Shown here in pieces: positions 3,126-35,112 of a stretch of 36,336 nt of DNA. The stretch spans positions 1 to 36,336 of the forward strand of contig NZ_JAHXBG010000030.1 of NCBI RefSeq assembly GCF_020103725.1, written 5' to 3'. The notes below the pieces were generated by a model. The model was given only the letters and a program-made list of their open reading frames with translations. It was not told the DNA's origin and searched no databases. Within the stretch, counting starts at the first letter, position 1. Each line of letters starts with the position of its first letter. This stretch comes from Hyalangium gracile (lineage in GTDB: Bacteria; Myxococcota; Myxococcia; Myxococcales; Myxococcaceae). The translations under genes were made by a program, and so were the position numbers.

Positions 3126-3788
<663 letters not shown>

Positions 3789-20394: not shown

Positions 20395-21009
20395 GTGGCC
20401 AGGAAAAAGTTCATCGCCGTCGCAGGCAACATCGGCGCCGGCAAGACAGAGCTCACTTCGTTCCTCTGCCGCAAGTACGGGCTCACTCCGTACTTCGAGC
20501 CGAACGATCAGAACCCCTATCTGGCCGACTTCTACAAGGACATGAAGAAGTGGGCGTTCCGGTCGCAGATCTTCTTCCTCACCCACAAGTTCCGGCTCCA
20601 CCGCGAGATGGAGCGCCATGCCGGCACCGTCCTACAGGATCGCACCATCTATGAGGACGCGGAGATCTTCGCCAAGAACCTGCACCGCCAGCGCTTCATC
20701 GACCGGCGCGACTGGCAGATGTACCGCGAGCTCTATGAGACGATCTCCCAGGTGCTGACCCCGCCCGACCTGATGATCTACCTGCGCTGCCCGGTGCAGA
20801 CCCTCAAGGAGCGCATCCGGCTGCGCGGCCGAGCCATGGAGAAGGACATCCCCACGCTCTACCTCAAGCGCCTCAATGCCCTGTACGAGGAATGGTTCAG
20901 TAACTACAAGATGTCGCCCGTCCTCGTTCTCCCGACGGACAAGCTGGATTACCTGACCAACCTGGTGGATCGCGTGGATCTCTTCCGCCAGATCGAGAAG
21001 CACCTGTGA
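20395..21009 (+). CDS. Deoxynucleoside kinase (dNK / deoxyadenosine-deoxyguanosine kinase family)
   Basis: 204 aa from GTG 20395. P-loop IAVAGNIGAGKTELT and dNK-like motifs (YFEPNDQNPYL, FRSQIFFLTHKFR, DRTIYEDAEIFAKNL). The ORF-track extension from 20131 has no homology and is probably not translated. Confidence 0.75.
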   Translation: MARKKFIAVAGNIGAGKTELTSFLCRKYGLTPYFEPNDQNPYLADFYKDMKKWAFRSQIFFLTHKFRLHREMERHAGTVLQDRTIYEDAEIFAKNLHRQRFIDRRDWQMYRELYETISQVLTPPDLMIYLRCPVQTLKERIRLRGRAMEKDIPTLYLKRLNALYEEWFSNYKMSPVLVLPTDKLDYLTNLVDRVDLFRQIEKHL

Positions 21010-22184
21010 AGGAGGTCTACGCTCTGGCCACCGAGTCGTCCTCCTCGCCGTCCCTGGCCGAGCTGCGCCATACGTTCGAGTCGGATGACGTGCGCTTCTC
21101 GCCGCGCGAGGGGGAGGCCGGGTTCATCGTCCAGGCCGAGGGGACCCGCGTGGAGGTGCGCTTCAGCACCCAGGGGCCCTCCTTCGAGGGCGCCGATCAG
21201 CGCCTGCTGACCGGCAGCGAGGAGGCCCAGCAGGCCTTCCAGCGCGCCAAGGGCTTCTTCTACATCTCCGTGGAGCCGGGCTCCGGGCCCCAGCCCACCG
21301 TGCCCGTCTTCGAGGCGCTGTGGTGCGCGCGCTCGCTGATGGAGCTCACCCAGGGCGTGCTGCTGGATCTCACCTCGTACAAGCTGCACGACGTGGCGGA
21401 CGTGGTGGAGATCACCGAGCTGGACTTCGACATCCGCGACCATGTGAACCTCCACGCCGTGGCCGCCATCGAGGGCGACACCCCCCTGTGGGTGCACTCG
21501 CACGGGATGGAGAAGTTCGGCACGCGGGACCTGGAGATCTTCCACCTGGGCGAGGAGGACCTGCTGGCCGCGGAGATGTTCCTCCACGAGCTGTGCACCG
21601 ACATGGCCTTCGGCCAGGGCCCCGAGCCTCGCAAGGAGGTGCACACCAGCGAGGGCCAGTCCTTCATGATGGTCCCCTCCGAGGAGGCTCGCATCAACCT
21701 GCTGGGCGTGCCGCTGGAGACCTTCGAGGGCCACGAGGCGCTGTTCCTCAGCGTGGTGTCCCCCCTGGGCCGGCACAACACCGCCGAGCTCTTGCGCCCG
21801 TACCGCGAGCGCTTCGTGCCCGAGCCCGAGGAGCGCACCGAGTCGCTGCGCGTCGAGTCCCAGGCCCTGCTGCCCGCCTTCAAGGCTCGCTTCCAGCGCA
21901 AGGGGCTCATGGAGCCGCTCACCTTCCTGGTGCGCGCTCCCTTCGAGACCCACCCCGAGGGCCAGGCCGTCGAGGAGAACCTCTGGCTGGAGGTCATGCT
22001 CTGGGAGGAGGGCACGGTGGTGGGCAAGCTGGTGGATGGCGCCGTCCACACCACCGAGTGGCGCAAGGGCGCCCAGGTCGAGGTGGACGAGGAGCACGTC
22101 AACGCGCTCGCCATCAGCCGCGAGGGGCGCACCCTGGACGAGGAGGAGATGCGCGCCCTGCTCATCGCCGAGCGGCCCATGTAA
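21006..22184 (+). CDS. Hypothetical protein, function unknown; the C-terminal roughly 120 aa may resemble DUF2314/YegJ-like domains (from memory, unverified)
   Basis: 392 aa, acidic, no TM or signal peptide. GTG start overlaps the dNK stop (GTGA), suggesting translational coupling. High GC3 supports that it is coding. Confidence 0.6.
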   Translation: MKEVYALATESSSSPSLAELRHTFESDDVRFSPREGEAGFIVQAEGTRVEVRFSTQGPSFEGADQRLLTGSEEAQQAFQRAKGFFYISVEPGSGPQPTVPVFEALWCARSLMELTQGVLLDLTSYKLHDVADVVEITELDFDIRDHVNLHAVAAIEGDTPLWVHSHGMEKFGTRDLEIFHLGEEDLLAAEMFLHELCTDMAFGQGPEPRKEVHTSEGQSFMMVPSEEARINLLGVPLETFEGHEALFLSVVSPLGRHNTAELLRPYRERFVPEPEERTESLRVESQALLPAFKARFQRKGLMEPLTFLVRAPFETHPEGQAVEENLWLEVMLWEEGTVVGKLVDGAVHTTEWRKGAQVEVDEEHVNALAISREGRTLDEEEMRALLIAERPM

Positions 22185-22302
22185 CCCAGCCCGCCGGCCG
22201 GCACGACGCGCCGGGCTGGCGCGTTGCGGTGTCCGCCCGCGTCGCGAGATCCGACTCGAGGTCGCTTGCCCGGAGCACGCGGGGCGCTAGGCTCCGCGCG
22301 CC

Positions 22303-24003
22303 ATGCCAGCCCTGCTGCTGCTCACCGGTCCTTCCGCTGGCCGCCGCTACGAGGTGGTCTCGGAAGTCACGATCGGTCGCAGCCCCTCCTGCGAGATCCA
22401 GATCGAGGACGACAAGGTGTCCCGGCGGCACGCTCGCATCTTCGTGCGCGCGGGGCAGGTGTGGCTGCGCGATCTGGAGTCCCGCAACGGCACGCTCGTC
22501 AACGGGCAGCGCCTGGAGGGCGAGGCCTGCCTGCTGCCCGGCGATCGCGTCCAGGTGGGGGAGACCACCGTCATCTACGAGCCGCTCAGCCAGGCGGCCC
22601 TGGCGCAGACGGAGCCGCTCGACGCCAGCCATGTGCCCATCGCCGAGGTGCTGCCTCACGTGGGCCCCCAGGCGGCCCTCTTCTCGGCGGGCGTGGCCCT
22701 GCTGGGAGCCACCAGCGAGGCCATGGTGCTGCGGCGCCTGGTGGAGGAGGCCCTGCACGCGCTCAATGCGGACCGCGCCGCGGCGCTGCTGGGCCGGCAG
22801 GAGGGGTTGCTCACCGCGGCCGTGTCCGGCGCGGCCTCCGTGGAGGTGCCTCGCGCCATGGCGAGCATGGCTTTGGAGCTGAAGGAGGTGGCCTCCTCGG
22901 GCACCGCGCTGTGCGCTCCACTGGTGGCCTCGGGGGGCATGCCCTTCGGGCTGTTGTTCGTGGGGTGCAACGAGCCCCGCTTCGGCGCCCTGGAGGTCCA
23001 GCTCGTGGCGGCGCTCGGGCGCATGGGCGGCGAGGCGTACACCGCCATGCGCTCGCGCGCGGTGGAGGAGCAGGCCCAGGTGGAGCTGGTCGGCACGTCC
23101 CGGCCGTTCCGCCGCATGGTGGAGCAGGCCCGCCGCGCCGCCGCCAGCGCCGCTCCCGTGGTCATCTCGGGGGACCCCGGGGCGGGCAAGAGCCTGCTGG
23201 CCCGGTTCGTCCACTCCCACTCGCCGCGAGGGCTCGGGCCGCTGGTGGCGGTGGACTGCCGGCAGCCGACCGTGGAGGAGCTCCTCTTCGGTGGGCCCAG
23301 CACTCCCGGCCAGCCCCCGCGCTCCTCCGCGCTCCTGCGCGCGGATGGAGGCTCGCTGCTGCTCCAGCACGTGGAGGCGCTGTCGGGCGCCATCGTCGAG
23401 CGGCTGACGCGGATGCTCGCGCGCAAGGTGGCTCCGGCGCGGCAGGGCGGCGAGGAGCCCGTGGACCTGCGCCTCATCGCCACCGCGAGCGCCCCCGCCC
23501 AGCTCCTGGCCGCCAAGGGGGAGATGGACATGGCCCTGGCGATGGCTCTGTCCGGGCTGGAGATCGAGGTGCCTCCGCTCCGCGAGCGCCGCGCCGATGT
23601 GCTCACGCTCTTCGAGCACTTCGCCCGGCGTGGAGTGGGGGATGCTCGGAAGCCTCCGCCCGTGCTGAGCCCTGGGGCCCGGCGCCTGCTGACCGACTAT
23701 GCGTGGCCGCAGAACGTCCGCGAGCTGAAGCTGGTGAGCGAGCGGCTCGCGCGCCTGTACGCCGGCAGCGAGGTGCACACGCTGCGCCTGCCTCCGGAGA
23801 TCCAGGAGGGCTCGGTGGACTCGGAGCCGCGCAGCCTGCAGCAGATGGTCGAGCGACTGGAGCGGGATGCCATCATCGAAGCGCTCCAGGCCGCGGGAGG
23901 GCGGAAGATCCGCGCGGCGGAGCGCCTGGGCATCAGCCGTCCCACGCTCGACAAGAAGATCGAGGAGTACGCCATCCGCGTGGAGCGGTCTCGGCGGAGC
24001 TGA
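22303..24003 (+). CDS. FHA-domain sigma-54-dependent transcriptional regulator (bacterial enhancer-binding protein family) with C-terminal Fis-type HTH
   Basis: 566 aa. N-terminal FHA (GRSPSCEIQIEDDKVSRRHARIF...LRDLESRNGTLVNGQRL). Central AAA+ domain with Walker A GDPGAGKS. C-terminal HTH (KIRAAERLGISRPTLDKKIEEY). The GAFTGA loop is degenerate (ELLFGGPSTPGQPP). Confidence 0.8.
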   Translation: MPALLLLTGPSAGRRYEVVSEVTIGRSPSCEIQIEDDKVSRRHARIFVRAGQVWLRDLESRNGTLVNGQRLEGEACLLPGDRVQVGETTVIYEPLSQAALAQTEPLDASHVPIAEVLPHVGPQAALFSAGVALLGATSEAMVLRRLVEEALHALNADRAAALLGRQEGLLTAAVSGAASVEVPRAMASMALELKEVASSGTALCAPLVASGGMPFGLLFVGCNEPRFGALEVQLVAALGRMGGEAYTAMRSRAVEEQAQVELVGTSRPFRRMVEQARRAAASAAPVVISGDPGAGKSLLARFVHSHSPRGLGPLVAVDCRQPTVEELLFGGPSTPGQPPRSSALLRADGGSLLLQHVEALSGAIVERLTRMLARKVAPARQGGEEPVDLRLIATASAPAQLLAAKGEMDMALAMALSGLEIEVPPLRERRADVLTLFEHFARRGVGDARKPPPVLSPGARRLLTDYAWPQNVRELKLVSERLARLYAGSEVHTLRLPPEIQEGSVDSEPRSLQQMVERLERDAIIEALQAAGGRKIRAAERLGISRPTLDKKIEEYAIRVERSRRS

Positions 24004-24012
24004 GGGGGGACC

Positions 24013-25089
24013 ATGAAGTTTCAGCAGATCGCTCAGTACCGGCTCCAGCAGCAGCAGATTGCCCGGACGCGGTTCAAGACTCCGGGACAGATCGTCTCCT
24101 GGCTCGGGGCCCTCCAGGCGCAAGACTATCCCGGGGCGAAGTGGTCCATCGGCCTGCGGCTGCCGGACACCACCGATGCGGACGTCGAGCAGGCCATCGC
24201 CGACGGGGCCATCGTCCGCTCGTGGCCGATGCGCGGCACGCTCCACATCGTGGCTCCGGAGGATCTGCGCTGGATGCTGGCGCTCCTGGCTCCCCGCAAC
24301 ATGGAGAGCGCCGCCCTGCGGCACCGGCAGATCGGCCTGACGGCCGCCAGGTTCTCGCGCAGCCAGAAGCTCTTCACCAAGGCCTTGCAGGGCGGCCAGG
24401 CCCTGACGCGCGACGAGCTGTATGCCGTGCTGGAGCGCGCCCGGCTCTCGACGGACAGCCAGCGCGGGTATCACTTCTTGTGGAGGGCGGCTCAGGAGGG
24501 GCTGATCTGCTTCGGCCCCACGCGCGGCAAGCAGCAGACCTTCGTGCTCCTGGACGAGTGGGTGCCCGCGTCCAGGAAGCTCGATCGCGAGGAGTCCCTG
24601 GCGGAGCTGGCGATGCGCTACTTCACCAGCCACGGCCCCGCCACGTTGCAGGACTTCCTGTGGTGGTCCGGGCTGAAAGCCGCCGAGGCGAGAGCCGCGC
24701 TGGACTCGGTCTCCTCGCGGCTCGAGCAGGTGACCGTGGACGGACAGGAATACTGGCTGGCCCGCGACCTGCGAGCGCCGAGAGCCGCCTCTCCCACCGC
24801 CTATCTGTTGCCGGGCTTCGATGAGTACATGCTCGGCTACACGGACCGCGGCGCCGTGGTCGCGCCGGAGCATCGGAAGAAGTGGCTCCCCACCAACGGG
24901 ATGTTCAGCCCGATCGTCGTCATTGACGGCCAGGTGCTGGGCACCTGGAAGCGGACGCTCAAGAAGAAGGCGCTGGTCGTGACGGTCCGCTCGTTCGTTC
25001 CGCTGAGCAAGGCCCAGAAGCGCGCGGTCGAAGCCGCGGCCGAGCCCTATGGCCGCTTCATGGGCGCACCCGTCGAGCTGTCCTTCTGA
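24013..25089 (+). CDS. AlkZ/YcaQ-like winged-helix DNA glycosylase (HTH_42 / DUF1006 family)
   Basis: 358 aa. Q35-A36-Q37 (LGALQAQDY) sits at the position of the AlkZ catalytic Q-x-Q motif. Overall length and layout match YcaQ/AlkZ. It starts 9 nt after the EBP stop. Confidence 0.65.
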   Translation: MKFQQIAQYRLQQQQIARTRFKTPGQIVSWLGALQAQDYPGAKWSIGLRLPDTTDADVEQAIADGAIVRSWPMRGTLHIVAPEDLRWMLALLAPRNMESAALRHRQIGLTAARFSRSQKLFTKALQGGQALTRDELYAVLERARLSTDSQRGYHFLWRAAQEGLICFGPTRGKQQTFVLLDEWVPASRKLDREESLAELAMRYFTSHGPATLQDFLWWSGLKAAEARAALDSVSSRLEQVTVDGQEYWLARDLRAPRAASPTAYLLPGFDEYMLGYTDRGAVVAPEHRKKWLPTNGMFSPIVVIDGQVLGTWKRTLKKKALVVTVRSFVPLSKAQKRAVEAAAEPYGRFMGAPVELSF

Positions 25090-25213: not shown

Positions 25214-28087
25214 ATGGGCAACTCCTCCTCCAGTGGCATTGGCGGCTCGCGTCCTCCCTCCACGACTCGGACCCAACAGGCGTCCACGCAGGCGACCCAG
25301 AAGCCTGTCAGCGTGCCCCCGCCGCCGAAGCCGCCGCCACCTTCTCCCAAGGAGCTGATGGACAAGTTCTTCGCCCAGCAGAAGTCGAAGAACCCCAACA
25401 TCTCCGAGACGGTCGCAGGCGATGTCTCGGTGGCCAACGCGCCCCGCATGAGCCCCGCGCAGCTGATGGCCCTGGCCTCCAAGGGCTTCGCCGCCACGCT
25501 GCCCAAGGCTGGCACCGGCGCGGGGGCCACGGGCACGGTGGCTCAGAGCACTCCCTCCAAGCCGCCCACGGCCCAGAGCCCCGCCTCGTCGCTGGCGAGC
25601 GAGGTGCTCAACGATGGCAGCTCGAACTGCCTCGAGAGCGCCTACGAGTCCGCACGCCCGGGCGATCAGATCCTCCTCTACAGGGACGCGGATGATCCCG
25701 TGGGCCACGCCGTCGTGCAGCGCCCGGATGGCTCCATCTCCGACCCGAACGAGCCCGGCAAGGTGTACGCCAGCCGCGCGGAGTGGGAGGCGGCCCACAC
25801 CGACTACCACCAGCCGGTCTCCATCCCCCAGTCGCACCTGCGCCAGGTCTTCGCCCAGCCGCCCGGCCCGCAGCGAGACGCCGTCATCCAGAAGCTGGGG
25901 CTCACCTCCATCGCCTACCGCCAGGTGGCCGATGGTGTCACCGCCGAGCGCCAGGACGCGCTGCGCTTCGCGGCCGAGCAGATCGGCAATGAGCCCGCGA
26001 TGATGGAGCAGGTCTTCGCCGGGACCCTGCAGCCGGGACCGCTCACCGCCGAGGAGAGGGCCTTCCTCGTCCAGCAGATGGTGGAGCGCAGCATCGCGAG
26101 CGGTGATGCGCAGGCCTTCTCGCTGGCGGGCTCCAACCCGGCGGCGTACCCGGAGCTGGCGCGGGCGCTGGGCCATGCCTTCGAGATGGGGGCGGTGACG
26201 CCCGAGATGCTGGGCCAGTTGATGGGCCCCGACGGCCTGGGGCGATACGAGGAGTACTCGGAGTTCGCCGAGCTCATCGCCGCCAGCGGCTCGGATGCGC
26301 TCCAGTCCGAGGTGGCCGGGCAGCTGTGGGCGCTGTCGGGCGGGGATCTGTCGGCCCAGGCCGCGGCCCTCACCGCCGCCGGGAGCTCCGGGCCCGCCGC
26401 CCAGCGGCTCATCGACACCGCGGGCGTGGACGCGCTCACCCAGACCCTCACCACCCTCAGCGCCAACTCGAGCATGGGCACCGAGGACAACGTCTGGGCC
26501 CAGGCCGTCGGCGGACTGATGTCCGGACTGGCCGAGCTGCCTCGCTCGGAGACGACGGACCGTCTGGGGGCCACGGTCCTCATGGCGCTGCCGCCGGAGA
26601 CGCTCCAGAACAGCAGCACCGTGCGCGGCCCCGTGGCCCAGTACCTGTCGTCCATCCGGTTCCCCGGGGACACCGCGGCCCAGCAGGCCGACACCCGGAA
26701 CTGGGAGGCCATCCTCCAGAACACCCATGGGGCCTCGCTGCTCTTCAACCCGCAGCTGCCGGTGGAGGCCCGCCAGGCCAATCTGCTCTTCTTCCTCCAG
26801 CGGCCGAACTTCAACCCCGAGCTGCTCAACACCTACCAGGGCAACCTGGGCAGCATCGCCGCGGCCGAGGTCCAGACGGCCCTGGGCAACATGGATCCGG
26901 CGAACGTGAACGGGGCGGCGGAGCTGCCGGCCGTCCCCGGAGACCTGGCCGGCCAGTTCCCGGCCATCGCGAACCTGCCCCAGCCGGTGACCGCGGAGAG
27001 CCTGCAGGGCTCCATCCCCAACCCCATCACTCCGGCCATGGCCGCCGACTACCTGGATGCCCTGGCCTCCTCCATCGCCGCCACCGGCAACACGGACCTC
27101 TCCGCGTACACCGGCGGCGACCAGGCCATGGCGACCCTCTTCAACGTGATCGCCGGCAACCCCATCCAGCAGGCCCACCTGGATGACTTCTCGGCCATCG
27201 GCGTCGCGGGGCTGAGGGAGCTAGCCCAGCAGATCCGCGGCTCGAGTGATCCCGCGTTCGTGGCCCAGGCGCTCACGCTCGGCGGCATCCAGCACGACAC
27301 GTACTTCGACAACCTGGGGCCCTTCGTGGACAGCGTGATCGCCCAGCGCGATCAGATCCTGGGCAACATCACCGGTGTGCGGCAGCTGGCCGAGACCGCG
27401 TGCAAGACGGGCGTCTCCGCGCTGGCCATGGCCGCCGGAGGGCCCGTGGCCGCCGCCGCAGCCAACGCCGCGCTCGGCTCGGTCTTCGCGCAGCTCGAGG
27501 CCAACCAGGAGGGGCGCGAGCTCACCCTGCCCAACCTCGTCGGCGGGGCGATCCTGGACTTCGGCGTGGGAGCGCTGGCGCCCGTGCTCGGCGCGCGCGC
27601 CAAGGATGCGCTCGGGCCCGTCCTGGGGCGGCTGGCTCCCGTCATCCAGGGCCTGTTCGAGGCCGCGGGCGGTCAGGCCGCGGACATCCTCCGCGATCCG
27701 GCGAAGCTCGAGGAGCTCTGGGCGAGCGGCCAGTCGCGAGACGATCTGATGCGGGCCCTCATCCTCGGCACCGTCACCAACTCCATCCCGTGGGACTCGC
27801 TCACGCCCAACCTCAAGGGCCAGATCGCCACCTTCCTGCGCGTGGACTTCGAGACGCAGGACATCGCGTCGGAGTTGCTCAAGGGCGCGGCGATGCAGGC
27901 CGCCACCATCTGGTTCGACCCGAACTTCCAGGCCCGGCTGCGCTCGGGGGAGATCTCCCCCGAGCAGGCTGTCCAGGAGATGCAGGCCAGCGGCGTCAGC
28001 ATCTTCGGAAATGGCACCACCGGCACGGACCCCGCCACCACCGAGGCCATGCTGCGCATCCTCATGTCGAGCCCCGAGACGCCGTGA
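25214..28087 (+). CDS. Large hypothetical protein (957 aa); Pro/Ser/Thr-rich disordered N-terminus, then a long Ala/Gly/Leu-rich predicted-helical region; no signal peptide or TM
   Basis: GC3 is very high in this frame. The overlapping minus-strand 689-aa ORF is Arg/Gly-rich and is a typical antisense artefact. N-terminus MGNSSSSGIGG. A Cys...His...Asp cluster at about aa 170-215 (SNCLESAY...GHAVV...DGSISD). Confidence 0.7.
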   Translation: MGNSSSSGIGGSRPPSTTRTQQASTQATQKPVSVPPPPKPPPPSPKELMDKFFAQQKSKNPNISETVAGDVSVANAPRMSPAQLMALASKGFAATLPKAGTGAGATGTVAQSTPSKPPTAQSPASSLASEVLNDGSSNCLESAYESARPGDQILLYRDADDPVGHAVVQRPDGSISDPNEPGKVYASRAEWEAAHTDYHQPVSIPQSHLRQVFAQPPGPQRDAVIQKLGLTSIAYRQVADGVTAERQDALRFAAEQIGNEPAMMEQVFAGTLQPGPLTAEERAFLVQQMVERSIASGDAQAFSLAGSNPAAYPELARALGHAFEMGAVTPEMLGQLMGPDGLGRYEEYSEFAELIAASGSDALQSEVAGQLWALSGGDLSAQAAALTAAGSSGPAAQRLIDTAGVDALTQTLTTLSANSSMGTEDNVWAQAVGGLMSGLAELPRSETTDRLGATVLMALPPETLQNSSTVRGPVAQYLSSIRFPGDTAAQQADTRNWEAILQNTHGASLLFNPQLPVEARQANLLFFLQRPNFNPELLNTYQGNLGSIAAAEVQTALGNMDPANVNGAAELPAVPGDLAGQFPAIANLPQPVTAESLQGSIPNPITPAMAADYLDALASSIAATGNTDLSAYTGGDQAMATLFNVIAGNPIQQAHLDDFSAIGVAGLRELAQQIRGSSDPAFVAQALTLGGIQHDTYFDNLGPFVDSVIAQRDQILGNITGVRQLAETACKTGVSALAMAAGGPVAAAAANAALGSVFAQLEANQEGRELTLPNLVGGAILDFGVGALAPVLGARAKDALGPVLGRLAPVIQGLFEAAGGQAADILRDPAKLEELWASGQSRDDLMRALILGTVTNSIPWDSLTPNLKGQIATFLRVDFETQDIASELLKGAAMQAATIWFDPNFQARLRSGEISPEQAVQEMQASGVSIFGNGTTGTDPATTEAMLRILMSSPETP

Positions 28088-28153: not shown

Positions 28154-30931
28154 TCAGTACAGGAGCAGCTTGCCGGCGCGGAAGAAGCACACCCGCGTCT
28201 GATCCTGCGCGTCGACGGCGGCGTCGATCTCCGCCGCGTCCACCGCGCTCAGGTTCTCGGTGCGAGACCAGTAGTTGTCCGAGCCTGGCCGAGCGACCTC
28301 GAGCTGGCCTCCGTGAGTGAAGGCGAGGCGAGGTCTGCCGCTGGCATCCGCGGCGACGGCGAGCTCCGTGAGGGAGAATCCCTCCACGTTGGACACGCTG
28401 ACCGTGCTGGCGCTGAACGGGGTGCCGAGCGTCACCCGCTGCAGCCCGTACTGTGTGAGCAGCAGCGGTCCCGTGGTCGTCCAGGAGGTGGAGATCCTCG
28501 CGCTGCCCAGGCTGCCAGGCAGCGTCAGCGCCTCGGGTGCGCCCGTGCTCTTCCAGGCCCCCAGGAAGGTGTCGCTGTAGGGGATGTAGAGCGTGCCGCT
28601 CGGGCTGAAGACGGCATCCCCGAGGGGCTGCTGGTGGCTGCTGGCGGTGGTGGGAAAGGTGACCAGCGTGGAGGACCAGGCAGCGGCGCCCGTGCGGTAG
28701 GCGACGGCCGTGCGCCAGAGATTTCCGATGCTGTTCACGTAGCCGTACCAGCCATAGACGACGGTGGGACGGTTGCCGTTGGAGGGATCCAGAGCAATGG
28801 AGACCCAGGTGTCCGAGTCGACAGGCGTCGCGGTGGAGTCCACGCGCTCGCGGATCCAGGTGTTCCCGGAGCGCGTGGCGTACCAGAGCCCCTTGCCGCC
28901 CAGCAGGTATGCCAGGTGGGGTGTCCCATCGGCGGCGACGGTCATCGCCAGGGACTCCAGGACGACGCCGCCGGTGTTGAAGCCCATGCCATCCACCTGC
29001 TCCATGGCCCAGGTGGTGCCGGTGCGCGTGCCGTACCACAGAGAGGGGTGTGTCAGTCCGCGGAAGGCCAGGTGCGCCACGGCTCCACGCATCTCCAGCT
29101 GGCACGTCGAGCCGAAGCGCTCGTGGCCCTCGGCCACCACCTCGGGGACGCGGACGTAGGGAGTCACGGTGAGGGTGAGGGTGGCGGTGGCCTTCAGCCC
29201 GTCGTTGTCCGTGACTTCCAGCGTCACGGTGTACGTGCCCGGGGAGGCATAGGTGTGCGGGGCCTGAGGAGCCGTGCCGTCCACGGGCGGTGTCGAGTCG
29301 CCGAAGTCGAAGCGGTAGCGGGTGACAGTGCCATCCGGATCGCTGGAGGTGGCGCCGTCGAAGGTGGCGACGCGGAGGGCTTCCGCCTGAGCGGGCCCTG
29401 TCAGCCGCGCCACGGGAGGCAGCTTCACCTGCGCTGGCTCCATGACGAGCTGGATGCTGGAGCTGGCCACCCGGCCGCCGGAGTCGGTGGCCGTCAGGGT
29501 GATCTGATGCGTACCCGCGCCCAGCGAGCCCACGTCCAGTGAGGAGCCCTGGCCAAGCTGCCCGGCGAGGCTGGACTGCCAGGAGAGGCGGTTGCCGGTG
29601 AGCACGCCGTCCTCGGGATCCTGTGCGGAGCCGCGCAGAGCCACCACGGTGCCTACGGTGAAGCGGGAGCCGTTGGCCGGAGCGGTGATCTGAACGGAGG
29701 GAGGGTTGTTGGCGGGGAGGACCTCGACGGTGATGCGAGCGGCGCTCTCGTTGCCCGTGGAGTCCCTGGCGGTGAGGACGAGCTCATGGGAGCCAGGCGA
29801 GAGCCCCGGCACGGTGAGCGGGCTGCCTGTCCCGAGGGAGCCCGCGAGGCTGGAGGACCAGCGCAGCGAGGCGCCCGACAGGGGGCCATCCTCGGCGTCA
29901 GTGGCGGTGCCCTCCAGGGTGAGGGGAGTGCCAGCGAAGAGGGTGAAGCCGTTGGCGGGGCGGGTGATGGAGACGGTGGGAGCCGTCTGGCCCTGGACGG
30001 TGACGGTGACGAGCACGGAGGCGCTGGAAGAGGCGCCCAGCGAGTCGGTGGCGGTGAGCGTCAGGGTGTGAGAGCCGGCCGAGAGCAGCACGCCGGTCAC
30101 CTGGCGGCCCGTGCCCAGGGCGCCATCCTTGCTGGAGGTCCACTTCAGAGCGCTGTCGGCCAGCGTGCCATCCTCGGCATCCGTGGCGCTGCCTTGCAGG
30201 GTGACGGCCTGGGTGGTGAGGAAGCGTGCGCCCTCGGTGGGCTGTGTGAGGGTGACGACCGGCTTCAGGTTGGTGCCGGGAGGGACGACCGTCACCGTGA
30301 CGCTGGCGTAGCCAACCTGGCCTGACGGATCCACGGCGGTCAACAGCAGGCGGTGAACCCCGCGAGTCGCGCCGGAGAAGGACAGCTGGGTGCCGGTGCC
30401 GATGACGCCGCCTTTGTCGGAGCTCCAGGTGAGCGCCGCGCCGGACAGCGCTCCCGTCTCTGGATCCAGGGCCTTGCCGCGCAGCGGAATGGGCGAGCCC
30501 TCCTCGAAGGTGGCGCCCGAGGTGGGCGACTCGATGGTGGCCACCGGAGGCTGATTCTCGATGATGACGGTGACGGAGAGCTGCGCACGCGCCTGCTTAC
30601 CGCCGGAGTCGGTGACATCCAGGCTGAGGCGGTGCTCGCCGGCGGAGAGCCGGGCGCTCAGGGGAGTGCCGGTGCCCAGCTCGCCATCGAGGCTCGAGGA
30701 CCAGCGCAGGGCGGTGCCGCTCAGAGGGCCGTCTTCCGGATCGGTGGCCAGACCTGCCAGCTCATGTGGCCCGGCTCCCCGCAGCGTGGCGCCATTCTCG
30801 GGCGAGAGGATGCGGGCGGTAGGCGCGGTGTTCTCAGGCGGTGGCGGTGGCGGTGGAGGCGGCTGAGGCTTGTCGCCCCCACAGCCCGCCAGCGCCACGA
30901 GCGCGAGCACCAGAAGGATGCGTGTGGACAT
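28154..30931 (-). CDS. Surface lipoprotein with five tandem Ig-like repeats (about 93 aa each), one PKD domain and a roughly 330-aa C-terminal beta-propeller-like domain of unknown function
   Basis: 925 aa. Signal plus lipobox LVALAGCGG, then a poly-Pro linker. Each repeat carries ATDxEDGxL...W(S/T)SS(L/K)DGxLGTG...G.H.L.LTA.DS.G. PKD-like segment RYRFDFGDSTPPVDGTAPQAPHTYASPGTYTVTLEVTDNDG. The C-terminal domain has recurring (L/I)AY...GLWYAT.SGNTW units. Confidence 0.8.
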   Translation of the reverse strand: MSTRILLVLALVALAGCGGDKPQPPPPPPPPPENTAPTARILSPENGATLRGAGPHELAGLATDPEDGPLSGTALRWSSSLDGELGTGTPLSARLSAGEHRLSLDVTDSGGKQARAQLSVTVIIENQPPVATIESPTSGATFEEGSPIPLRGKALDPETGALSGAALTWSSDKGGVIGTGTQLSFSGATRGVHRLLLTAVDPSGQVGYASVTVTVVPPGTNLKPVVTLTQPTEGARFLTTQAVTLQGSATDAEDGTLADSALKWTSSKDGALGTGRQVTGVLLSAGSHTLTLTATDSLGASSSASVLVTVTVQGQTAPTVSITRPANGFTLFAGTPLTLEGTATDAEDGPLSGASLRWSSSLAGSLGTGSPLTVPGLSPGSHELVLTARDSTGNESAARITVEVLPANNPPSVQITAPANGSRFTVGTVVALRGSAQDPEDGVLTGNRLSWQSSLAGQLGQGSSLDVGSLGAGTHQITLTATDSGGRVASSSIQLVMEPAQVKLPPVARLTGPAQAEALRVATFDGATSSDPDGTVTRYRFDFGDSTPPVDGTAPQAPHTYASPGTYTVTLEVTDNDGLKATATLTLTVTPYVRVPEVVAEGHERFGSTCQLEMRGAVAHLAFRGLTHPSLWYGTRTGTTWAMEQVDGMGFNTGGVVLESLAMTVAADGTPHLAYLLGGKGLWYATRSGNTWIRERVDSTATPVDSDTWVSIALDPSNGNRPTVVYGWYGYVNSIGNLWRTAVAYRTGAAAWSSTLVTFPTTASSHQQPLGDAVFSPSGTLYIPYSDTFLGAWKSTGAPEALTLPGSLGSARISTSWTTTGPLLLTQYGLQRVTLGTPFSASTVSVSNVEGFSLTELAVAADASGRPRLAFTHGGQLEVARPGSDNYWSRTENLSAVDAAEIDAAVDAQDQTRVCFFRAGKLLLY

Positions 30932-30940
30932 GGCTCGGCT

Positions 30941-32389
30941 CTACTGGAACATCACCTTCGAGCCGGACTGGAAGCAGTAGTGGAGCGCGCCCGTCGTGGG
31001 CCGCTGCGCCAGGGCGACGCGCCTGTTGGTGGTCGCCGTACCGACGTCCGTATAGGTCCAGTAGTTGTTGGCGTTGGGGGCGACCAGCTCCAGGGAGCTC
31101 CCATGGAGATGGATTTCCTGGGGCTTGCCCCCGGCGAAGACCAGGTCACCCACGGGCGCCTGGACTCCTTCGATATCCGAGACGATGAAGGAGGCCACGG
31201 GCGTCGTCGTTCCGACAGTGATGTCCAACAGGGTGCTCCCCGCTCGGAGCAGCAGGCGTCCCGTCCCCGTCCTCACCAGGGCCTCCTGGTCGCTCTCGTA
31301 CAGAGTGCCGCTGAAGAACACGTAGCTGGCAGGGGCCGCGTTTGCCTTCCAGGTGCCGATCGCGGCGTACCCGAAGGGAATGTAGAGCGTCCCGTTGGGC
31401 TCGAAGACCATCTCCCCTCGGACGTTCTGCTCCTCATAGGCGTAGTTGTGCGGGAACTCGAGCATGGTGGCGGTCCAGGCGTTCGCGCCTGTCCGGTAGG
31501 CCATGACGGTCCGGGTGGTGGTGGTCCCCGCGCTGCTGAGATAGCCACGCCAGCTATAGGCGATCGTGGGGCGGTTGCCCTGGGACGGATCCAGGGCGAT
31601 GGAGACGCGGTAGTTGGAGTGGGGCGGGAGCGAAGGGGTGTCGACCCGCTCACGGATCCACGTGTTGCCCGAGAGCGTGGCGTACCACACGCCCTTGCCG
31701 CTCATCCTGTAGGCGATGTGGGGCTTGCCCGCGGTGTCCAGGACCATCGCCATGGTGTTCATCACGATGCCGCCCGTGTTGAAGCCCATGCCATCCACCA
31801 TCTGGGTCGTCCACGCGGAGCCGTTCCAGGTGCCGTACCAGAGCGAGGGGTGGGTCTCGTTGTGGTAGATGAGGTGCCCGATCCCCGCCGCATCGAAGGC
31901 CAGGTCACAGACATCGCCCGTCTCGTCGTCGGAGGTATCCACGGCCACGGGGGCGAACGCCACGTTGGCGGCCTGGGGTTCGGTGGACTGGCTGGAGGCC
32001 TCGGCGGAGACGCGGTACTGGAAGGTCTCGGTGAGCTGCTCGCCCGAGTCCGTCTCCGCGGTGAGGGTGAGGGTGGCGGTGCCGGCCCGAGGCAGCGTCC
32101 AGGTGGCCTCCATCCCCTGCGTCTCCAGCATCCCGCCGCTGGCGCTCCAGAGCACGGATTTCACGTCCGGCCGCGAGGAGACGGCGCGGAAGCGCTCCAC
32201 CGTGCGCTCCAGATAGGGGCCCTGGTTCTCTCGCTCCAGGCTGAAGCTGCGCGCGGTGGGCAGCGGCAGGTTCCCTGAGGAGGGGATGGCCGGGTGGGAA
32301 GGGACCACCGAGGTGGGCTCGGCGCAGCCCACGAGGACGAGAGCGGTACACAGGCCGAGGCGCCAGGCCTGCCAGAGAAGCGAGGTCAT
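30941..32389 (-). CDS. Paralogous lipoprotein: one Ig-like domain plus the same C-terminal beta-propeller-like domain as the upstream lipoprotein
   Basis: 482 aa with lipobox LVLVGCAEP. The C-terminal region is about 55-60% identical to the neighbour (HPSLWYGTWNGSAWTTQMVDGMGFNTGG...GKGVWYATLSGNTWIRERVDTPS). A shared 24-nt DNA identity, GTGTTGAAGCCCATGCCATCCACC, occurs in both genes. The gap to the neighbour is 9 nt. Confidence 0.8.
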   Translation of the reverse strand: MTSLLWQAWRLGLCTALVLVGCAEPTSVVPSHPAIPSSGNLPLPTARSFSLERENQGPYLERTVERFRAVSSRPDVKSVLWSASGGMLETQGMEATWTLPRAGTATLTLTAETDSGEQLTETFQYRVSAEASSQSTEPQAANVAFAPVAVDTSDDETGDVCDLAFDAAGIGHLIYHNETHPSLWYGTWNGSAWTTQMVDGMGFNTGGIVMNTMAMVLDTAGKPHIAYRMSGKGVWYATLSGNTWIRERVDTPSLPPHSNYRVSIALDPSQGNRPTIAYSWRGYLSSAGTTTTRTVMAYRTGANAWTATMLEFPHNYAYEEQNVRGEMVFEPNGTLYIPFGYAAIGTWKANAAPASYVFFSGTLYESDQEALVRTGTGRLLLRAGSTLLDITVGTTTPVASFIVSDIEGVQAPVGDLVFAGGKPQEIHLHGSSLELVAPNANNYWTYTDVGTATTNRRVALAQRPTTGALHYCFQSGSKVMFQ

Positions 32390-32423: not shown

Positions 32424-33353
32424 TTATCGAGCGGAGGCGACTGCCGTCAATTGCGGCTTCCCCTCAAGCGCGCAGGAGGTGAGCGCCGCCACGACTGGCA
32501 GGCCTGTGTTGTAGAGGGCCGTGCGGCTGCTGCCCACCTGCTGCACGCTGCGGTTCCAGATGACGTAGGAGAGCACCAGGGAGATCAGCGCCGAGTAGGC
32601 CAGGGCCGCCCACGCTCCAGGTCCGACGCGGGAGGGCTCGAGCTCCAGCACGGCCGGCAACCCCGCGAGGACCACGGCGGGGGCACCGGAGATCATCGTC
32701 ATCGCGGTGACGCGCAGCGCCGACAGTCCCGGGTCCAGGGTGCGCAGGCCCACCGTGTAGATGGCCCAGCAGACGCACCCGGCGAGGATGAGCAGATCCC
32801 CCACGCGCGTATCCGCGCTCAGCTCCGGCCCGCGTGCCGCCACCACCAGGATCATCCCCGGCACCGAGAGCACCAGCCCGAGCACGACGTTGCGGGTGAG
32901 CCGCTCCAGCCCGAAGGCCGCCGCGAGGGACGTGGTGAGCACCGGCGACACCGCCGTGAGCAGCCCGCTGTTGGCCGCCGTGGTGCGGTCGATGCCCAGC
33001 ATGAAGAAGAGCTGGTACAGCGTGTTGCCCATGAGCCCCAGCGCCATGAGCCGCAAGAGCGTGGCGCGGGGCAGCGGCTTCCAGCCCTCCAGCCGCCACA
33101 GCAGCACCCCCATGGCCAGCGCGGCGAGGCCGAAGCGCAGCGACATGAAGGCCAGCGCCGGAATGGCGTCCAGCGCCTCCTTCACCACCGTGTAGTTCGT
33201 CCCCCAGATGACCACCACGGAGGCGATGGCCACGTCCGACAGGGAGAAGCGGCGAGCCGGAGAGGAGGGCGGCGGGCTGGAAGGAGGGGAGGTGCTCACG
33301 GCGGAGGGACGCCTGGCGGCGCCGGGCTCCTGTACACCGGAGGCGCTTCCCAC
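32424..33353 (-). CDS. EamA/DMT-family transporter (10 predicted TM)
   Basis: 309 aa, hydrophobic throughout, with two EamA-like halves. The N-terminal 35 aa are low-complexity Ser/Pro and may not be translated; the true start may lie downstream. Confidence 0.7.
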   Translation of the reverse strand: MGSASGVQEPGAARRPSAVSTSPPSSPPPSSPARRFSLSDVAIASVVVIWGTNYTVVKEALDAIPALAFMSLRFGLAALAMGVLLWRLEGWKPLPRATLLRLMALGLMGNTLYQLFFMLGIDRTTAANSGLLTAVSPVLTTSLAAAFGLERLTRNVVLGLVLSVPGMILVVAARGPELSADTRVGDLLILAGCVCWAIYTVGLRTLDPGLSALRVTAMTMISGAPAVVLAGLPAVLELEPSRVGPGAWAALAYSALISLVLSYVIWNRSVQQVGSSRTALYNTGLPVVAALTSCALEGKPQLTAVASAR

Positions 33354-33390
33354 GCCATGGCGCTTGTCCCCCGGCGCTCCCTCGGCGTAG

Positions 33391-34308
33391 ATGCCCTCGA
33401 TGATGAGCTTCCGTTACTCCGACGAGGTGAGGTTCGCGCTGGATATGAAGGCGCCGCTGGTGGCGCTCGAGACGAGCGTGGTGGCCCAGGGCCTGCCGTA
33501 TCCGGACAACCTCGCCGCCGCCAGGGCCTGCGAAGAGGCCGTTCGCCGAGCGGGTGCCGTGCCTGCTCCCATCGCCGTGGTGGATGGCGAGGTGTGGATC
33601 GGCCTCGAGGAGGCAGGCATGCGCCGGCTCGCCGAGGGCAAGGAGAAGCTGATGAAGCTCGGCTCTCGCGACCTGCCCGTGGCCATCGCGCTGAAGGCCT
33701 CGGGAGGCACCACCGTGAGCGCCACCTGCGAGCTGGCCTCCGCCGCGGGCATCCGCGTCTTCGCCACCGGGGGGCTGGGCGGCATCCACCGGGGCGTCGC
33801 CGAGCACTGGGACATCTCCCAGGACATCGGCGCGCTGGCCCGCTACCCCGTGGCCGTGGTGTGCGCCGGGGCCAAGTCCGTGCTGGATCTGCCCAAGACG
33901 ATGGAGGCCCTGGAGACGGCCGGCGTGCCCGTGCTGGGCGTGGGCACCAGCGAGCTGCCGTCCTTCTACAGCCGAAGCTCGGGCCTGCCGCTGGAGCACC
34001 GCGTCGAGGACGCCGCCACGGCCGCTCGCATCGTCCGGGCCCGGCTGGAGCTGGAGCAGGGGGGCATGGTGTTCGCGCTGCCTCCGCCCGAGGACGTGGC
34101 CCTGCCTCGGGCGGACGTGGAGCTGCACATCGCCTCCGCGCTGGCCGAGGCCGAGCGCCAGGGCATCCGAGGCAAGGCCGTCACCCCGTTCCTGCTCTCG
34201 GACATGGCGAAGCGCACCGGCGGCAAGAGCCTGAAGGTGAACCTGGCGCTGCTGACGAACAACTCCCGGTTCGCCGGCGAGCTGGCCGTGGCCCTGGCGC
34301 GCGGCTGA
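33391..34308 (+). CDS. psuG: Pseudouridine-5'-phosphate glycosidase (PsuG/YeiN family)
   Basis: 305 aa. It is collinear with E. coli YeiN/PsuG: PLVALETS..., VFATGGLGGIHRG, DISQDIGALA, VVCAGAKSVLDL, GKAVTPFLLSDMAKRTGGKSLKVNLALL. The start could be ATG 33391, 33400 or 33403. Confidence 0.85.
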   Translation: MPSMMSFRYSDEVRFALDMKAPLVALETSVVAQGLPYPDNLAAARACEEAVRRAGAVPAPIAVVDGEVWIGLEEAGMRRLAEGKEKLMKLGSRDLPVAIALKASGGTTVSATCELASAAGIRVFATGGLGGIHRGVAEHWDISQDIGALARYPVAVVCAGAKSVLDLPKTMEALETAGVPVLGVGTSELPSFYSRSSGLPLEHRVEDAATAARIVRARLELEQGGMVFALPPPEDVALPRADVELHIASALAEAERQGIRGKAVTPFLLSDMAKRTGGKSLKVNLALLTNNSRFAGELAVALARG

Positions 34309-34309
34309 G

Positions 34310-34876
34310 CTACGGGCCGCGCACCGCGGCCCACAGCGACAGCGCACCGAACACGAAGAAGAGCGAGGCGGCCACCCACCGCAGCGCCTTCGTCTGCACC
34401 CGTCCGGCGAGCCTGTCGCCCAGGAACACCGCCAGCCCGTCCGAGAAGAGCATCCCCAGGGTGGTCCCCACCGTCACCTGCAGCACGCTCAGGTAGCGCG
34501 CCGCGAGCGCCACCGTGGCCAGCTGCGTCTTGTCTCCCATCTCCGCCAGGAAGAAGAGGACGGTGGTGGTGAGGAAGGCGCCGAAGCGCGGCGGCTTCTC
34601 CGCGTCCTCGTGCGTGTCCGGCTTGAGCGTCCACAGCCCGAAGCCGATGAAGGTGACGGCGAGGATGCCCGCCATCACCCGTGCGGGCACGTGCGCGGAC
34701 ACCCAGCTGCCCACGCTGGAGGCCAGCGCATGGTTGGCCAGCGTGGCCACGAGGATGCCCGCCATCACCGTCCACGGCTTGCGGAACCGCGTGACGAGCG
34801 AGAACGCGAGCAGCTGCGTCTTGTCGCCCATCTCACTGGCGGCCACGAGGAGGAAAGAGCTCACCACCGCTTCCAT
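34310..34876 (-). CDS. GDT1/TMEM165 (UPF0016) family putative Ca2+/Mn2+:H+ exchanger
   Basis: Two copies of the signature E-x-G-D-K-T motif (EMGDKTQ twice) within paired 3-TM halves. I place the start at ATG 34876 (MEAVVSSFLL...) rather than the upstream ATG at 34930, which adds a non-homologous 18 aa. Confidence 0.75.
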   Translation of the reverse strand: MEAVVSSFLLVAASEMGDKTQLLAFSLVTRFRKPWTVMAGILVATLANHALASSVGSWVSAHVPARVMAGILAVTFIGFGLWTLKPDTHEDAEKPPRFGAFLTTTVLFFLAEMGDKTQLATVALAARYLSVLQVTVGTTLGMLFSDGLAVFLGDRLAGRVQTKALRWVAASLFFVFGALSLWAAVRGP

Positions 34877-35112
34877 CACGACACTCCGAGTCTGCGGCCG
34901 AGGTGTCGTGGGAGCCTGCTGCGCACGCACGAGCCTCGGCCAGGTTTCCCTGTCCGAAGGTCTCGTTCGCCTCGCGCCGCGAGGTGAGGGCCCGGGCTGT
35001 CACCAGCCAGTGTGTCGAGCGCCCCGACGTCGATTGAATCCGACGTGAACTACTCCCCTTACTGGAGACGCCAACTATCAGTCCTGCGCCGGGGCTGCAA
35101 CAGGCAACGCGG

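What the first reader, a model, noticed from the sequence alone, without database searches (positions are those of the whole stretch)
28154..32389. Tandem paralogous lipoproteins sharing a novel C-terminal beta-propeller-like domain
Both genes are on the minus strand, 9 nt apart. Both encode lipobox proteins whose C-terminal roughly 330 aa are clearly homologous, with recurring blade-like units (PH(L/I)AY...G(L/V)WYAT(R/L)SGNTW...VD). These units resemble degenerate BNR/Asp-box (SxDxGxTW) repeats that lack the Asp. The 925-aa upstream paralog prepends five about-93-aa Ig-like repeats and a PKD domain. The 482-aa downstream one has a single Ig-like domain. The pair looks like a duplicated cell-surface module, possibly for adhesion, predation or polysaccharide recognition, with variable stalk length. 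I cannot place the C-terminal domain in any named family.
Basis: partly seen in the sequence, partly recalled or inferred. Interest (0 to 1): 0.55.

Follow-up and report, generated by a model that had tools for sequence, protein, structure and literature searches.

The report
Paired myxobacterial beta-propeller lipoproteins
Two adjacent Hyalangium gracile genes encode lipid-anchored proteins of unknown function, each ending in a seven-bladed beta-propeller, and this short-plus-long pair is inherited together across related myxobacteria, where gene conversion often keeps one fast-evolving sector of the two propellers identical.

Summary
Genes at 30941-32389(-) (482 aa, "B") and 28154-30931(-) (925 aa, "A") lie 9 nt apart. 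Both have a lipobox, and their C-terminal ~335 aa are 44% identical (E 3e-75).

Three corrections:
- The 482-aa gene is the upstream one.
- AlphaFold gives seven blades (pLDDT 93 for A), not 5-6.
- The domain can be placed. Blades 1-2 are copies of a widespread ~48-aa repeat (PHISY..LKYA..W..E.VD) that Pfam scores as BNR_4/DUF7253 in multi-repeat proteins. No curated model reaches threshold on this family itself.

Fold neighbours are generic seven-bladed propellers, led by the Photorhabdus PLL/PHL lectins (TM about 0.65-0.69). No enzyme family is assigned.

New findings:
- B-then-A is a conserved two-gene cassette in 17 distinct Myxococcaceae/Archangiaceae loci with unrelated flanks. Five loci have B alone.
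- The propellers are mosaics. Blades 6-7 are type-specific.
- Blades 3-4 are the fastest-evolving part (regional dN/dS 0.4-1.4).
- In many lineages blades 2-4 are nearly identical between A and B of one genome, up to 99% at the DNA level. This indicates recurrent segmental gene conversion. In this window the signal is old and weak.

Best reading: an outer-membrane ligand-binding pair with short and long stalks that shares one variable specificity sector. Function is untested. Interest is modest.

The parts
30941..32389 (-). Gene B (upstream): 482-aa predicted lipoprotein, RefSeq WP_224248908.1
   Evidence: ORF. Exact RefSeq match. Orthologues at 35-74% identity.
32324..32389 (-). B signal peptide with lipobox L19-V20-G21-C22
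   Evidence: Read from the translation. The Cys is conserved in B orthologues.
32006..32245 (-). B residues 49-128: single Ig-like beta-sandwich
   Evidence: AlphaFold model with seven strands and pLDDT about 81-91. No Pfam hit. hhalign probability 78% to A's stalk repeats.
30944..31954 (-). B residues 146-482: seven-bladed beta-propeller
31340..31801 (-). B residues ~197-350 (blades 2-4): sector shared with A. It is the gene-conversion tract in related loci, and blades 3-4 are its fast-evolving part.
   Evidence: In this window nucleotide identity to A is 63-80% across residues 166-270, against 33-52% from residue 339 onwards.
30932..30940 (-). 9-nt intergenic spacer between the B stop and the A start
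   Evidence: The spacer is 7-9 nt in the other loci where gene calls are available.
28154..30931 (-). Gene A (downstream): 925-aa predicted lipoprotein, RefSeq WP_224248907.1
   Evidence: ORF. Exact RefSeq match.
30881..30931 (-). A signal peptide with lipobox L14-A15-G16-C17
   Evidence: Translation. Lipobox conserved in A orthologues.
30827..30871 (-). A residues 21-35: proline-rich linker (ten consecutive Pro)
   Evidence: Translation.
29423..30826 (-). A residues ~36-503: five ~93-aa Ig-like (Big_7) stalk repeats
   Evidence: Pfam Big_7 at 1.4e-26 with 5 matched stretches. DNA repeat period 276-285 nt. Repeat alignment.
29165..29419 (-). A residues 505-589: PKD domain
   Evidence: Pfam PKD_4 at 2.2e-30.
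28157..29152 (-). A residues 594-925: seven-bladed beta-propeller
   Evidence: AlphaFold pLDDT 92.8, pTM 0.92. Foldseek best match PLL lectins, TM 0.65-0.69.
28544..28999 (-). A residues ~645-796 (blades 2-4): counterpart of the shared sector in B

Best explanation
The locus is a two-gene operon-like cassette, B then A, encoding two paralogous lipoproteins of Hyalangium gracile.

Each protein is tethered by an N-terminal lipid anchor and ends in a seven-bladed beta-propeller. B holds its propeller on one Ig-like domain. A holds it on a poly-proline linker, five Big_7 repeats and a PKD domain.

The propeller is a divergent, unnamed family of the BNR-like repeat propellers. Blades 1-2 keep the ancestral ~48-aa repeat and blades 4-7 are degenerate.

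The ring has two sectors:
- Blades 5-7 plus blade 1 are specific to A or to B and are conserved among orthologues.
- Blades 2-4 are shared. Blades 3-4 diverge fast between lineages, and recurrent gene conversion over a ~465-nt tract repeatedly makes blades 2-4 the same in A and B of one genome.

Inference: the pair sits in the outer membrane and binds a ligand, most likely a carbohydrate or another surface structure. The shared variable sector would set specificity, presented at two distances from the membrane, and the type-specific sector would distinguish the two proteins.

Shown: gene structure, lipoboxes, fold, family relations, cassette conservation, mosaic conservation and conversion tracts. 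Inferred: lipidation, localisation, ligand binding and the role of each sector.
For: - Genes and homology.
- Domains.
- Models: B has pLDDT 83 overall with the propeller mostly above 90. A's propeller has pLDDT 92.8 and pTM 0.92. Both have seven blades.
- Fold neighbours: PLL/PHL and BP39L lectins, integrin alpha, CylK and Vgb lead the lists. PL42/GH145 rank lower and six-bladed sialidases lower still.
- Repeat ancestry: the profile search gives 13,664 hits. In the top 150, 115 are multi-repeat proteins matching profile positions ~10-140. Pfam scores 5 of 6 tested multi-repeat proteins as BNR_4 and all 6 as DUF7253, above the curated cut-off. Blades 1-2 score 28-31 bits against the repeat HMM.
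- Cassette: the B-then-A pair occurs in 17 distinct loci, all Myxococcota, with different flanks.
- Lipobox Cys conserved in both types. Two Cys are conserved at 90% or more in both types, C161/C472 in B and C610/C915 in A.
- Mosaic: blade 7 is 70% identical among A orthologues and 56% among B orthologues, but 20% between A and B. Blade 3 is 34% among A and 33% among B, but 76% between A and B of the same locus, reaching 100% aa and 99% nt in L023.
- Tract edges are sharp, at about residues 197 and 350, in six lineages.
- Conversion must postdate the L022/L023 split. Blade 3 of A differs between them by dN 0.33, yet A and B within each locus are 93% or more identical.
- Regional dN/dS is 0.4-1.4 in blades 3-4 and 0.04-0.3 in blades 1, 2 and 6-7 in the more diverged orthologue pairs. 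The same holds for solitary B genes.
Against: - No experiment bears on localisation, lipidation or binding.
- I had no model coordinates, so I could not test whether the conserved His, Arg and Glu residues form a pocket.
- In this window the conversion signal is weak. Blade 3 is 53% aa and 62% nt identical, and codon identity at identical residues is no higher in blades 2-4 than elsewhere in the propeller.
- Regional dN/dS near 1 fits relaxed constraint as well as diversifying selection, and it rests on 45-66 codons per region.
- The recurring tract edges may only reflect conserved DNA anchors (VDGMGFNTGG, LGxWK) rather than selection.
- Five loci carry B alone, so the pair is not obligatory.
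Confidence: 0.5

Rival explanations
1. The propellers are enzymes: a new polysaccharide lyase or glycosidase family related to the BNR_4 group (PL25 ulvan lyases, PL42/GH145). The Ig-like and PKD stalk would present or tether the enzyme at the cell surface.
For: - Some orthologues hit Pfam BNR_4 weakly (best E 1.6e-5).
- His, Arg, Tyr and Glu residues are conserved in both paralogues: H180, H224, Y227, R246, E247, R299.
- PL24/25/42 enzymes use a His, His, Arg, Tyr set on the anterior face (PMC8377490).
Against: - The BNR_4 scores are below the gathering cut-off (13 bits against 27.3) and cover only one generic blade of the profile, positions 222-265.
- The profile search against PDB sequences finds no PL or GH relative, even at E 10.
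- Most of the conserved polar residues (PH, Y, YA, W, E.VD) recur in every unit of the non-enzymatic-looking multi-repeat proteins, so they look structural.
- Lectins and integrins match the fold as well or better.
- A hypervariable sector is unusual around a conserved active site.
Confidence: 0.15
2. A and B are envelope-internal (periplasm-facing) lipoproteins that form a heteromeric scaffold or chaperone-like complex, as BamB-type propeller lipoproteins do. The shared sector would be their mutual, pseudo-symmetric contact surface.
For: - Strict adjacency with a 7-9 nt spacer across 17 loci suggests co-expression and matched stoichiometry.
- Identical surfaces maintained by conversion would suit a two-fold-symmetric interface.
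- Propeller lipoproteins such as YncE and Lp49 appear among the fold neighbours.
Against: - A long stalk (poly-Pro, five Ig-like repeats and PKD) is typical of proteins that project away from the membrane, not of periplasmic scaffolds (PMC9210967).
- B occurs alone in Corallococcus, Pyxidicoccus and Citreicoccus.
- Blades 3-4 evolve fast even in solitary B genes.
- No interaction has been tested.
Confidence: 0.15
3. The pattern is neutral. This is an ordinary tandem duplicate pair with no joint function. Gene conversion simply happens where the DNA stays similar, and blades 3-4 drift under weak constraint.
For: - Tandem paralogues commonly undergo conversion.
- Tract edges coincide with the most conserved motifs.
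- Regional dN/dS is about 1 at most.
- The window pair shows no recent conversion.
Against: - The order, spacing and both reading frames are kept across orthologues down to 35% identity, with unrelated flanks.
- Type-specific blades 6-7 are under clear purifying selection in both genes, with dN/dS 0.06-0.3 in the more diverged orthologue pairs.
- Blades 3-4 still fold with high model confidence.
Confidence: 0.15

Closest known systems
Multi-repeat 'PHISY..LKYA..W..E.VD' propeller proteins that Pfam scores as BNR_4 (PF15892) / DUF7253 (PF23911)
   Same: Blades 1-2, and partly blade 3, are recognisable copies of their ~48-aa unit (28-31 bits). The family profile retrieves thousands of them. They too are secreted or surface proteins carrying PKD, Ig or CARDB modules.
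   Different: Those proteins hold 7-20 near-regular repeats. Here there is exactly one closed seven-blade ring with blades 4-7 degenerate, a family signature DGMGFNTGG, two conserved Cys, a lipid anchor and a paired gene organisation. Their function is also unknown.
Photorhabdus PLL/PHL and Burkholderia BP39L seven-bladed propeller lectins
BNR_4 enzymes: PL25 ulvan lyases, PL42 FoRham1, GH145 BT3686
   Different: Pfam scores are below the cut-off. No sequence match to any solved member. The catalytic residues could not be aligned.
Fibrillar adhesin-like proteins (Monzon et al. 2022, PMC9210967), including their cluster 16, which overlaps BNR_4
   Different: The anchor here is an N-terminal lipid rather than a cell-wall or C-terminal anchor. 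Adhesion is unproven in both cases. The short partner B has almost no stalk.
Myxobacterial TraA polymorphic kin-recognition receptor (comparison of logic only; from my own knowledge and the abstracts listed)
   Same: A myxobacterial cell-surface protein with a variable region on a conserved scaffold.
   Different: No homology. TraA uses a PA14-like variable domain and works with TraB. No recognition phenotype is known for the family described here.

Membership tests
Sialidase / classical BNR (Asp-box) propellers | Repeated Asp-box S-x-D-x-G-x-T-W detectable by the Pfam BNR/BNR_2 models | tested here: not met
   No BNR or BNR_2 hit for A, B or 16 relatives at E up to 1. Only blade 2 reads G-N-T-W, and both the Ser and Asp positions are replaced (translation).
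Sialidase / classical BNR (Asp-box) propellers | Six-bladed propeller | tested here: not met
   Both AlphaFold models have seven blades. Sialidases match with TM about 0.5 or lower.
Pfam BNR_4 (PF15892; PL25, PL42/GH145) | Score at or above the gathering cut-off of 27.3 bits | tested here: not met
   B scores 13 bits (E 0.065) and A has no hit. Four of 18 relatives hit, best E 1.6e-5.
Pfam BNR_4 (PF15892; PL25, PL42/GH145) | Seven-bladed propeller fold | tested here: met
Pfam BNR_4 (PF15892; PL25, PL42/GH145) | Catalytic His (base/acid), neighbouring His, Arg neutraliser and Tyr on the anterior face (PMC8377490) | not testable with these tools
No sequence alignment to solved members exists.
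~48-aa 'PHISY..LKYA..W..E.VD' repeat propellers (BNR_4/DUF7253-annotated) | Blades that match the repeat unit | tested here: met
   B blades 1 and 2 score 30.7 and 28.4 bits. A blades 1 and 2 score 10.1 and 23.8 bits. Blade 3 matches only marginally and blades 4-7 are not detected. The family profile retrieves multi-repeat proteins at E 1e-60 to 1e-114.
PLL/PHL propeller lectins | Sequence-level family membership | tested here: not met
   Identity is 12-15% in the structural alignments. No phmmer or hmmsearch hit at E up to 10.
PLL/PHL propeller lectins | Sugar-binding pockets between blades | not testable with these tools
   Needs coordinates or binding assays.
Bacterial lipoproteins | Signal peptide ending in a lipobox [LVI][ASTVI][GAS]C | tested here: met
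   LAGC17 in A and LVGC22 in B. Conserved in orthologues of both types. Lipidation itself was not tested.
Fibrillar adhesin-like proteins | Stalk of tandem Ig-like domains plus a distinct terminal domain and an anchor | tested here: met
   For A: lipobox, 5 Big_7 repeats, PKD and propeller. For B the stalk is a single domain.
Fibrillar adhesin-like proteins | Demonstrated adhesion through the terminal domain | not testable with these tools
   Needs experiments.
Diversity-generating retroelement targets | Adenine-specific differences between the two repeat copies, and a nearby reverse transcriptase | tested here: not met
   Mismatches between the A and B tracts are of all base types with no adenine bias. 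No reverse-transcriptase domain was found in the 10 window ORFs scanned, at 19.3-35.9 kb; ORFs before 19.3 kb were not scanned.

The most novel reading that the evidence does not exclude
The A/B pair is a polymorphic recognition device. Blades 2-4 would form a rapidly diversifying specificity surface for kin, prey or a lineage-specific surface glycan. Gene conversion would keep that surface matched between a short-reach and a long-reach receptor of the same cell. The logic resembles TraA-type polymorphic receptors but uses an unrelated seven-bladed propeller scaffold. The evidence does not exclude this, and there is no direct support for any recognition phenotype.
Probability: 0.1. Interest if true: 0.75.

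Novelty: new variant of a known kind. Interest (0 to 1): 0.35.

Why it matters
On its own this is an uncharacterised surface lipoprotein pair of a familiar build: an Ig-like stalk plus a BNR-like propeller. Two things make it worth recording.

First, it defines a compact, clade-restricted family in Myxococcaceae and Archangiaceae that no curated model covers. The family has a usable signature (DGMGFNTGG, two conserved Cys, seven blades).

Second, the mosaic marks out the regions to test first, before any experiment. One half of the ring is type-specific and conserved. The other half diverges between lineages but is kept alike by conversion within a genome.

If blades 2-4 set ligand specificity, strains already offer natural swap variants. 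Those could be used to test binding, prey range or cell-cell recognition in social, predatory bacteria.

Tried and rejected
- PDB sequence searches with the single domain and with the family profile found nothing meaningful.
- NCBIfam gave no family for the propeller.
- The afdb50 fold library was not available, so no comparison with AlphaFold DB neighbours was made.
- Model coordinates were not exposed to the sandbox. Mapping conserved residues onto the faces of the propeller and superposing on lyases or lectins was therefore impossible. My assignment of loops to the 'top' face is topological reasoning only and is not used as evidence.
- A diversity-generating retroelement was considered because two near-identical ~465-nt copies sit side by side. 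It was rejected: there is no adenine bias in the mismatches and no reverse transcriptase among the ORFs scanned.
- Tandem Repeats Finder sees no array in the region, because the Ig-like repeats are too diverged at 61-71%.
- The promoter and terminator consensus scans found nothing.
- Literature searches for DUF7253, BNR_4 and myxobacterial propeller lipoproteins found no study of this family.
- A fused A-B model for a heterodimer test was not attempted. The tool returns no inter-domain error estimates and would refuse a chimeric sequence.
- A third paralogue was sought only in the window and in the fetched loci (none). The rest of the H. gracile genome could not be scanned.
Full report
**Observation**

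The window comes from Hyalangium gracile. The 482-aa product is 100% identical to an NCBI protein of that species. Both products are exact RefSeq entries: WP_224248908.1, 'hypothetical protein', and WP_224248907.1, 'PKD domain-containing protein'.

The ORFs are 30941..32389(-) (482 aa, here B) and 28154..30931(-) (925 aa, here A). They are separated by TAG-agccgagcc-ATG.

Both N-termini carry a lipobox: LVGC22 in B and LAGC17 in A. A follows it with ten consecutive prolines.

BLASTP aligns A 596-892 with B 147-448 at 44% identity, E 3e-75. At DNA level a 300-nt ungapped repeat is 72% identical, and four of the five stalk repeats of A recur every 276-285 nt.

Pfam finds five Big_7 stretches and a PKD domain in A. 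It finds nothing above threshold in either C-terminal domain. B scores 13 bits on BNR_4 against a cut-off of 27.3. NCBIfam adds nothing. No third paralogue lies in the window.

**Fold**

AlphaFold2 with family alignments gives confident all-beta models:
- B: mean pLDDT 83, with the propeller mostly above 90 and an Ig-like sandwich at residues 49-128.
- A propeller: pLDDT 92.8, pTM 0.92.

Each model has seven four-stranded blades. An N-terminal strand (PVAVD in B) completes blade 7.

Foldseek against the PDB ranks the Photorhabdus PLL/PHL lectins first for both paralogues (E 3.5e-10 and 4.7e-11, TM 0.65-0.69, 12-15% identity). GH145/PL42 propellers follow at TM 0.58-0.64. Six-bladed sialidases score about 0.5 or lower.

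**Family relations**

A word-indexed search found only 22 relatives of B. The named ones are Hyalangium species and Myxococcota MAGs.

An exhaustive profile search with the propeller alignment (A2) found 13,664 cluster representatives at E up to 1e-3. They fall into two classes in the top 150:
- 35 match once over the full profile. They are 300-520 aa (B-like, some fragments) or 842-939 aa (A-like).
- 115 are 576-6384-aa proteins with 6-20 matched stretches, each matching profile positions of about 10-140. That region corresponds to blades 1-3.

The second class consists of regular arrays of a ~48-aa unit, SLALDsxGxPHISYYDxxxxDLKYAxWDGSxWxxExVD. Pfam scores five of six of these proteins as BNR_4 and all six as DUF7253, above the curated cut-offs. 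An HMM of that unit hits B blades 1 and 2 at 30.7 and 28.4 bits, and A blade 2 at 23.8 bits. Blades 4-7 are not detected.

The domain is thus a divergent, closed, seven-blade derivative of a widespread BNR-like repeat, not an orphan fold. The characterised BNR_4 members are PL25 ulvan lyases and PL42/GH145 enzymes (PMC8377490). A BNR_4-overlapping terminal domain has been proposed as a possible adhesive head of fibrillar adhesins (PMC9210967). No paper on DUF7253 or on this family was found.

**Distribution and gene organisation**

A scan of one genome per GTDB species used the family signature D[GA][MLP]GF[NG]TGG. It returned 28 loci, all Myxococcota: Hyalangium, Archangium, Corallococcus, Pyxidicoccus, Citreicoccus, and Myxococcaceae or Archangiaceae MAGs.

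Searching all fetched loci with the propeller HMM shows B followed directly by A in 17 distinct loci. Gene calls give spacers of 7-9 nt, and the flanking genes are unrelated between genera.

Five loci have B alone: Pyxidicoccus fallax, two Corallococcus species, Citreicoccus inhibens and one MAG.

Between H. gracile and H. versicolor the wider neighbourhood is syntenic (dNK, DUF2314, FHA-sigma54 activator ... psuG), with different genes inserted on either side of the pair. The locus is therefore chromosomal and not an obvious island.

A lipobox Cys is present in both types wherever the N-terminus could be read. Most A orthologues have five Ig-like repeats plus PKD. One has six repeats (L002) and one, at 842 aa, has about four judged from its sequence (P0112).

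B's single Ig-like domain is weakly related to the A stalk repeat (hhalign probability 78%).

**Mosaic evolution (new)**

A neighbour-joining tree of the propellers mostly separates A from B, which indicates an old duplication. In two loci, however, A and B pair with each other.

Blade-by-blade comparison explains this.

| Region | A vs A, between loci | B vs B, between loci | A vs B, same locus | A vs B, different loci |
|---|---|---|---|---|
| Blade 1 | 47.7% | 62.6% | 41.8% | 39.0% |
| Blade 2 | 56.2% | 54.6% | 75.2% | 54.2% |
| Blade 3 | 33.9% | 33.5% | 75.9% | 33.3% |
| Blade 4 | 33.7% | 29.9% | 63.0% | 30.1% |
| Blade 6 | 54.0% | 51.0% | 29.8% | 28.9% |
| Blade 7 | 69.6% | 56.2% | 20.3% | 19.5% |

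- Blades 6-7 are type-specific: conserved within each type, different between types whatever the locus.
- Blade 1 behaves similarly.
- Blades 3-4 are the most variable parts between lineages, yet A and B of one locus are alike there. Same-locus identity in blade 3 reaches 100% in L023.

The same-locus similarity holds at the DNA level. Blade 3 is 99% identical in nucleotides in L023, 97% in L019, 95% in L026 and 90% in L008, against 40-55% in blades 5-7.

Sliding windows show sharp edges near B residues 197 and 350 in six lineages. That is a tract of about 465 nt, bounded by the conserved VDGMGFNTGG and LGxWK motifs.

L022 and L023 are close relatives. Their A genes differ by dN 0.33 in blade 3, yet A and B are 93-100% identical within each locus. 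Conversion has therefore recurred after lineages split.

Mismatches within tracts are of all base types, so a retroelement-type mechanism is excluded.

Between close orthologues, regional dN/dS is 0.4-1.4 in blades 3-4. It is about 0.04-0.3 in blades 1, 2 and 6-7 in the more diverged pairs, though it runs higher in several very close pairs. Solitary B genes show the same contrast.

In the window itself the signal is old. Blade 3 is 53% aa and 62% nt identical between A and B, against 34% aa across loci. Synonymous similarity is not elevated.

**Interpretation**

Shown:
- Two co-inherited paralogous lipoprotein genes.
- Seven-bladed propellers descended from BNR-like repeats.
- A long and a short stalk.
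- A type-specific half-ring (blades 5-7 and 1) and a shared half-ring (blades 2-4) that is repeatedly homogenised by gene conversion, with blades 3-4 evolving fast.

Inferred:
- The proteins are lipidated and exported to the outer membrane. No orthologue read has Lys at +2, which in Myxococcus is reported to retain lipoproteins in the inner membrane. That point rests on my own recollection of Bhat et al. 2011 and was not checked here.
- The propeller is a binding head rather than an enzyme.
- Blades 2-4 set a specificity that both proteins share.

The rivals remain open: an enzyme, a periplasmic heteromer, or neutral tandem duplicates. They are listed with the tests that would separate them.

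**Verdict**

Its claim of a wholly unplaceable domain is not right.

This is a new, clade-restricted variant of a known kind of surface protein. Its function is unknown, and the concerted-evolution pattern shows where to look first. Interest is modest (0.35). It would rise sharply only if the shared variable sector proves to be a recognition determinant.

Noticed in passing
window 25214-28087 (+): A 957-aa ORF convergent with gene A. It has no Pfam hit at E up to 1e-3, begins MGNSSSSGIGGSRPP, and is RefSeq WP_224248906.1, 'hypothetical protein'. It is absent from the syntenic H. versicolor locus L001.
   Followed up: partly
L005, L008, L009, L016, L019, L022-L026, L029, L030, L032 (A-type N-termini): Most A orthologues have a second Cys two residues after the lipobox Cys (CQC, CNC, CDC, CTC). 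The window's A (CGGD) and H. versicolor's A lack it.
   Followed up: no
L010 (Pyxidicoccus fallax) 739-4227 (+); L012, L013, L015, L018: These loci carry a solitary B-type gene with no A partner. In L010 a 1162-aa CARDB/A2M-domain protein ends 50 nt upstream of it. In L012 the upstream gene is a LysR regulator.
   Followed up: partly
L008 and L009: The A and B propellers of the same locus cluster together in the whole-domain tree. In L008, identity to the partner is also raised in blade 1 (58% aa, 72% nt). This suggests a longer or more recent conversion than elsewhere.
   Followed up: partly
P0022, P0036 (database proteins): The distant multi-repeat relatives carry other secretion or anchoring modules. 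The source names P0036 a 'PGF-pre-PGF domain-containing protein', an archaeal-type anchor, and P0022 ends in an extra C-terminal beta-rich domain. The repeat therefore appears to extend beyond Bacteria.
   Followed up: no
window 16447-16503 (+): An Rfam L17-Actino-Proteobacteria ribosomal protein leader, 41.3 bits against a gathering score of 34.9. It is the only Rfam hit in the window, and there are no tRNA genes.
   Followed up: no
window 20131-25089 and 32424-34930; L001: The flanks are syntenic with H. versicolor (dNK, DUF2314, FHA-sigma54 activator on one side, psuG on the other). The genes next to the pair differ: EamA and AlkZ-like here, against TetR plus an RND efflux system, LysM and a histidine kinase there.
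   Followed up: partly
PDB chain 4up4_A: The only repeat-like PDB sequence hit of the family profile is the integrin-like lectin PVL. Its D-x-x-G-F/Y-x-x-G-G loop aligns with the family signature DGMGFNTGG, but E is 5.2 and so not significant.
   Followed up: no
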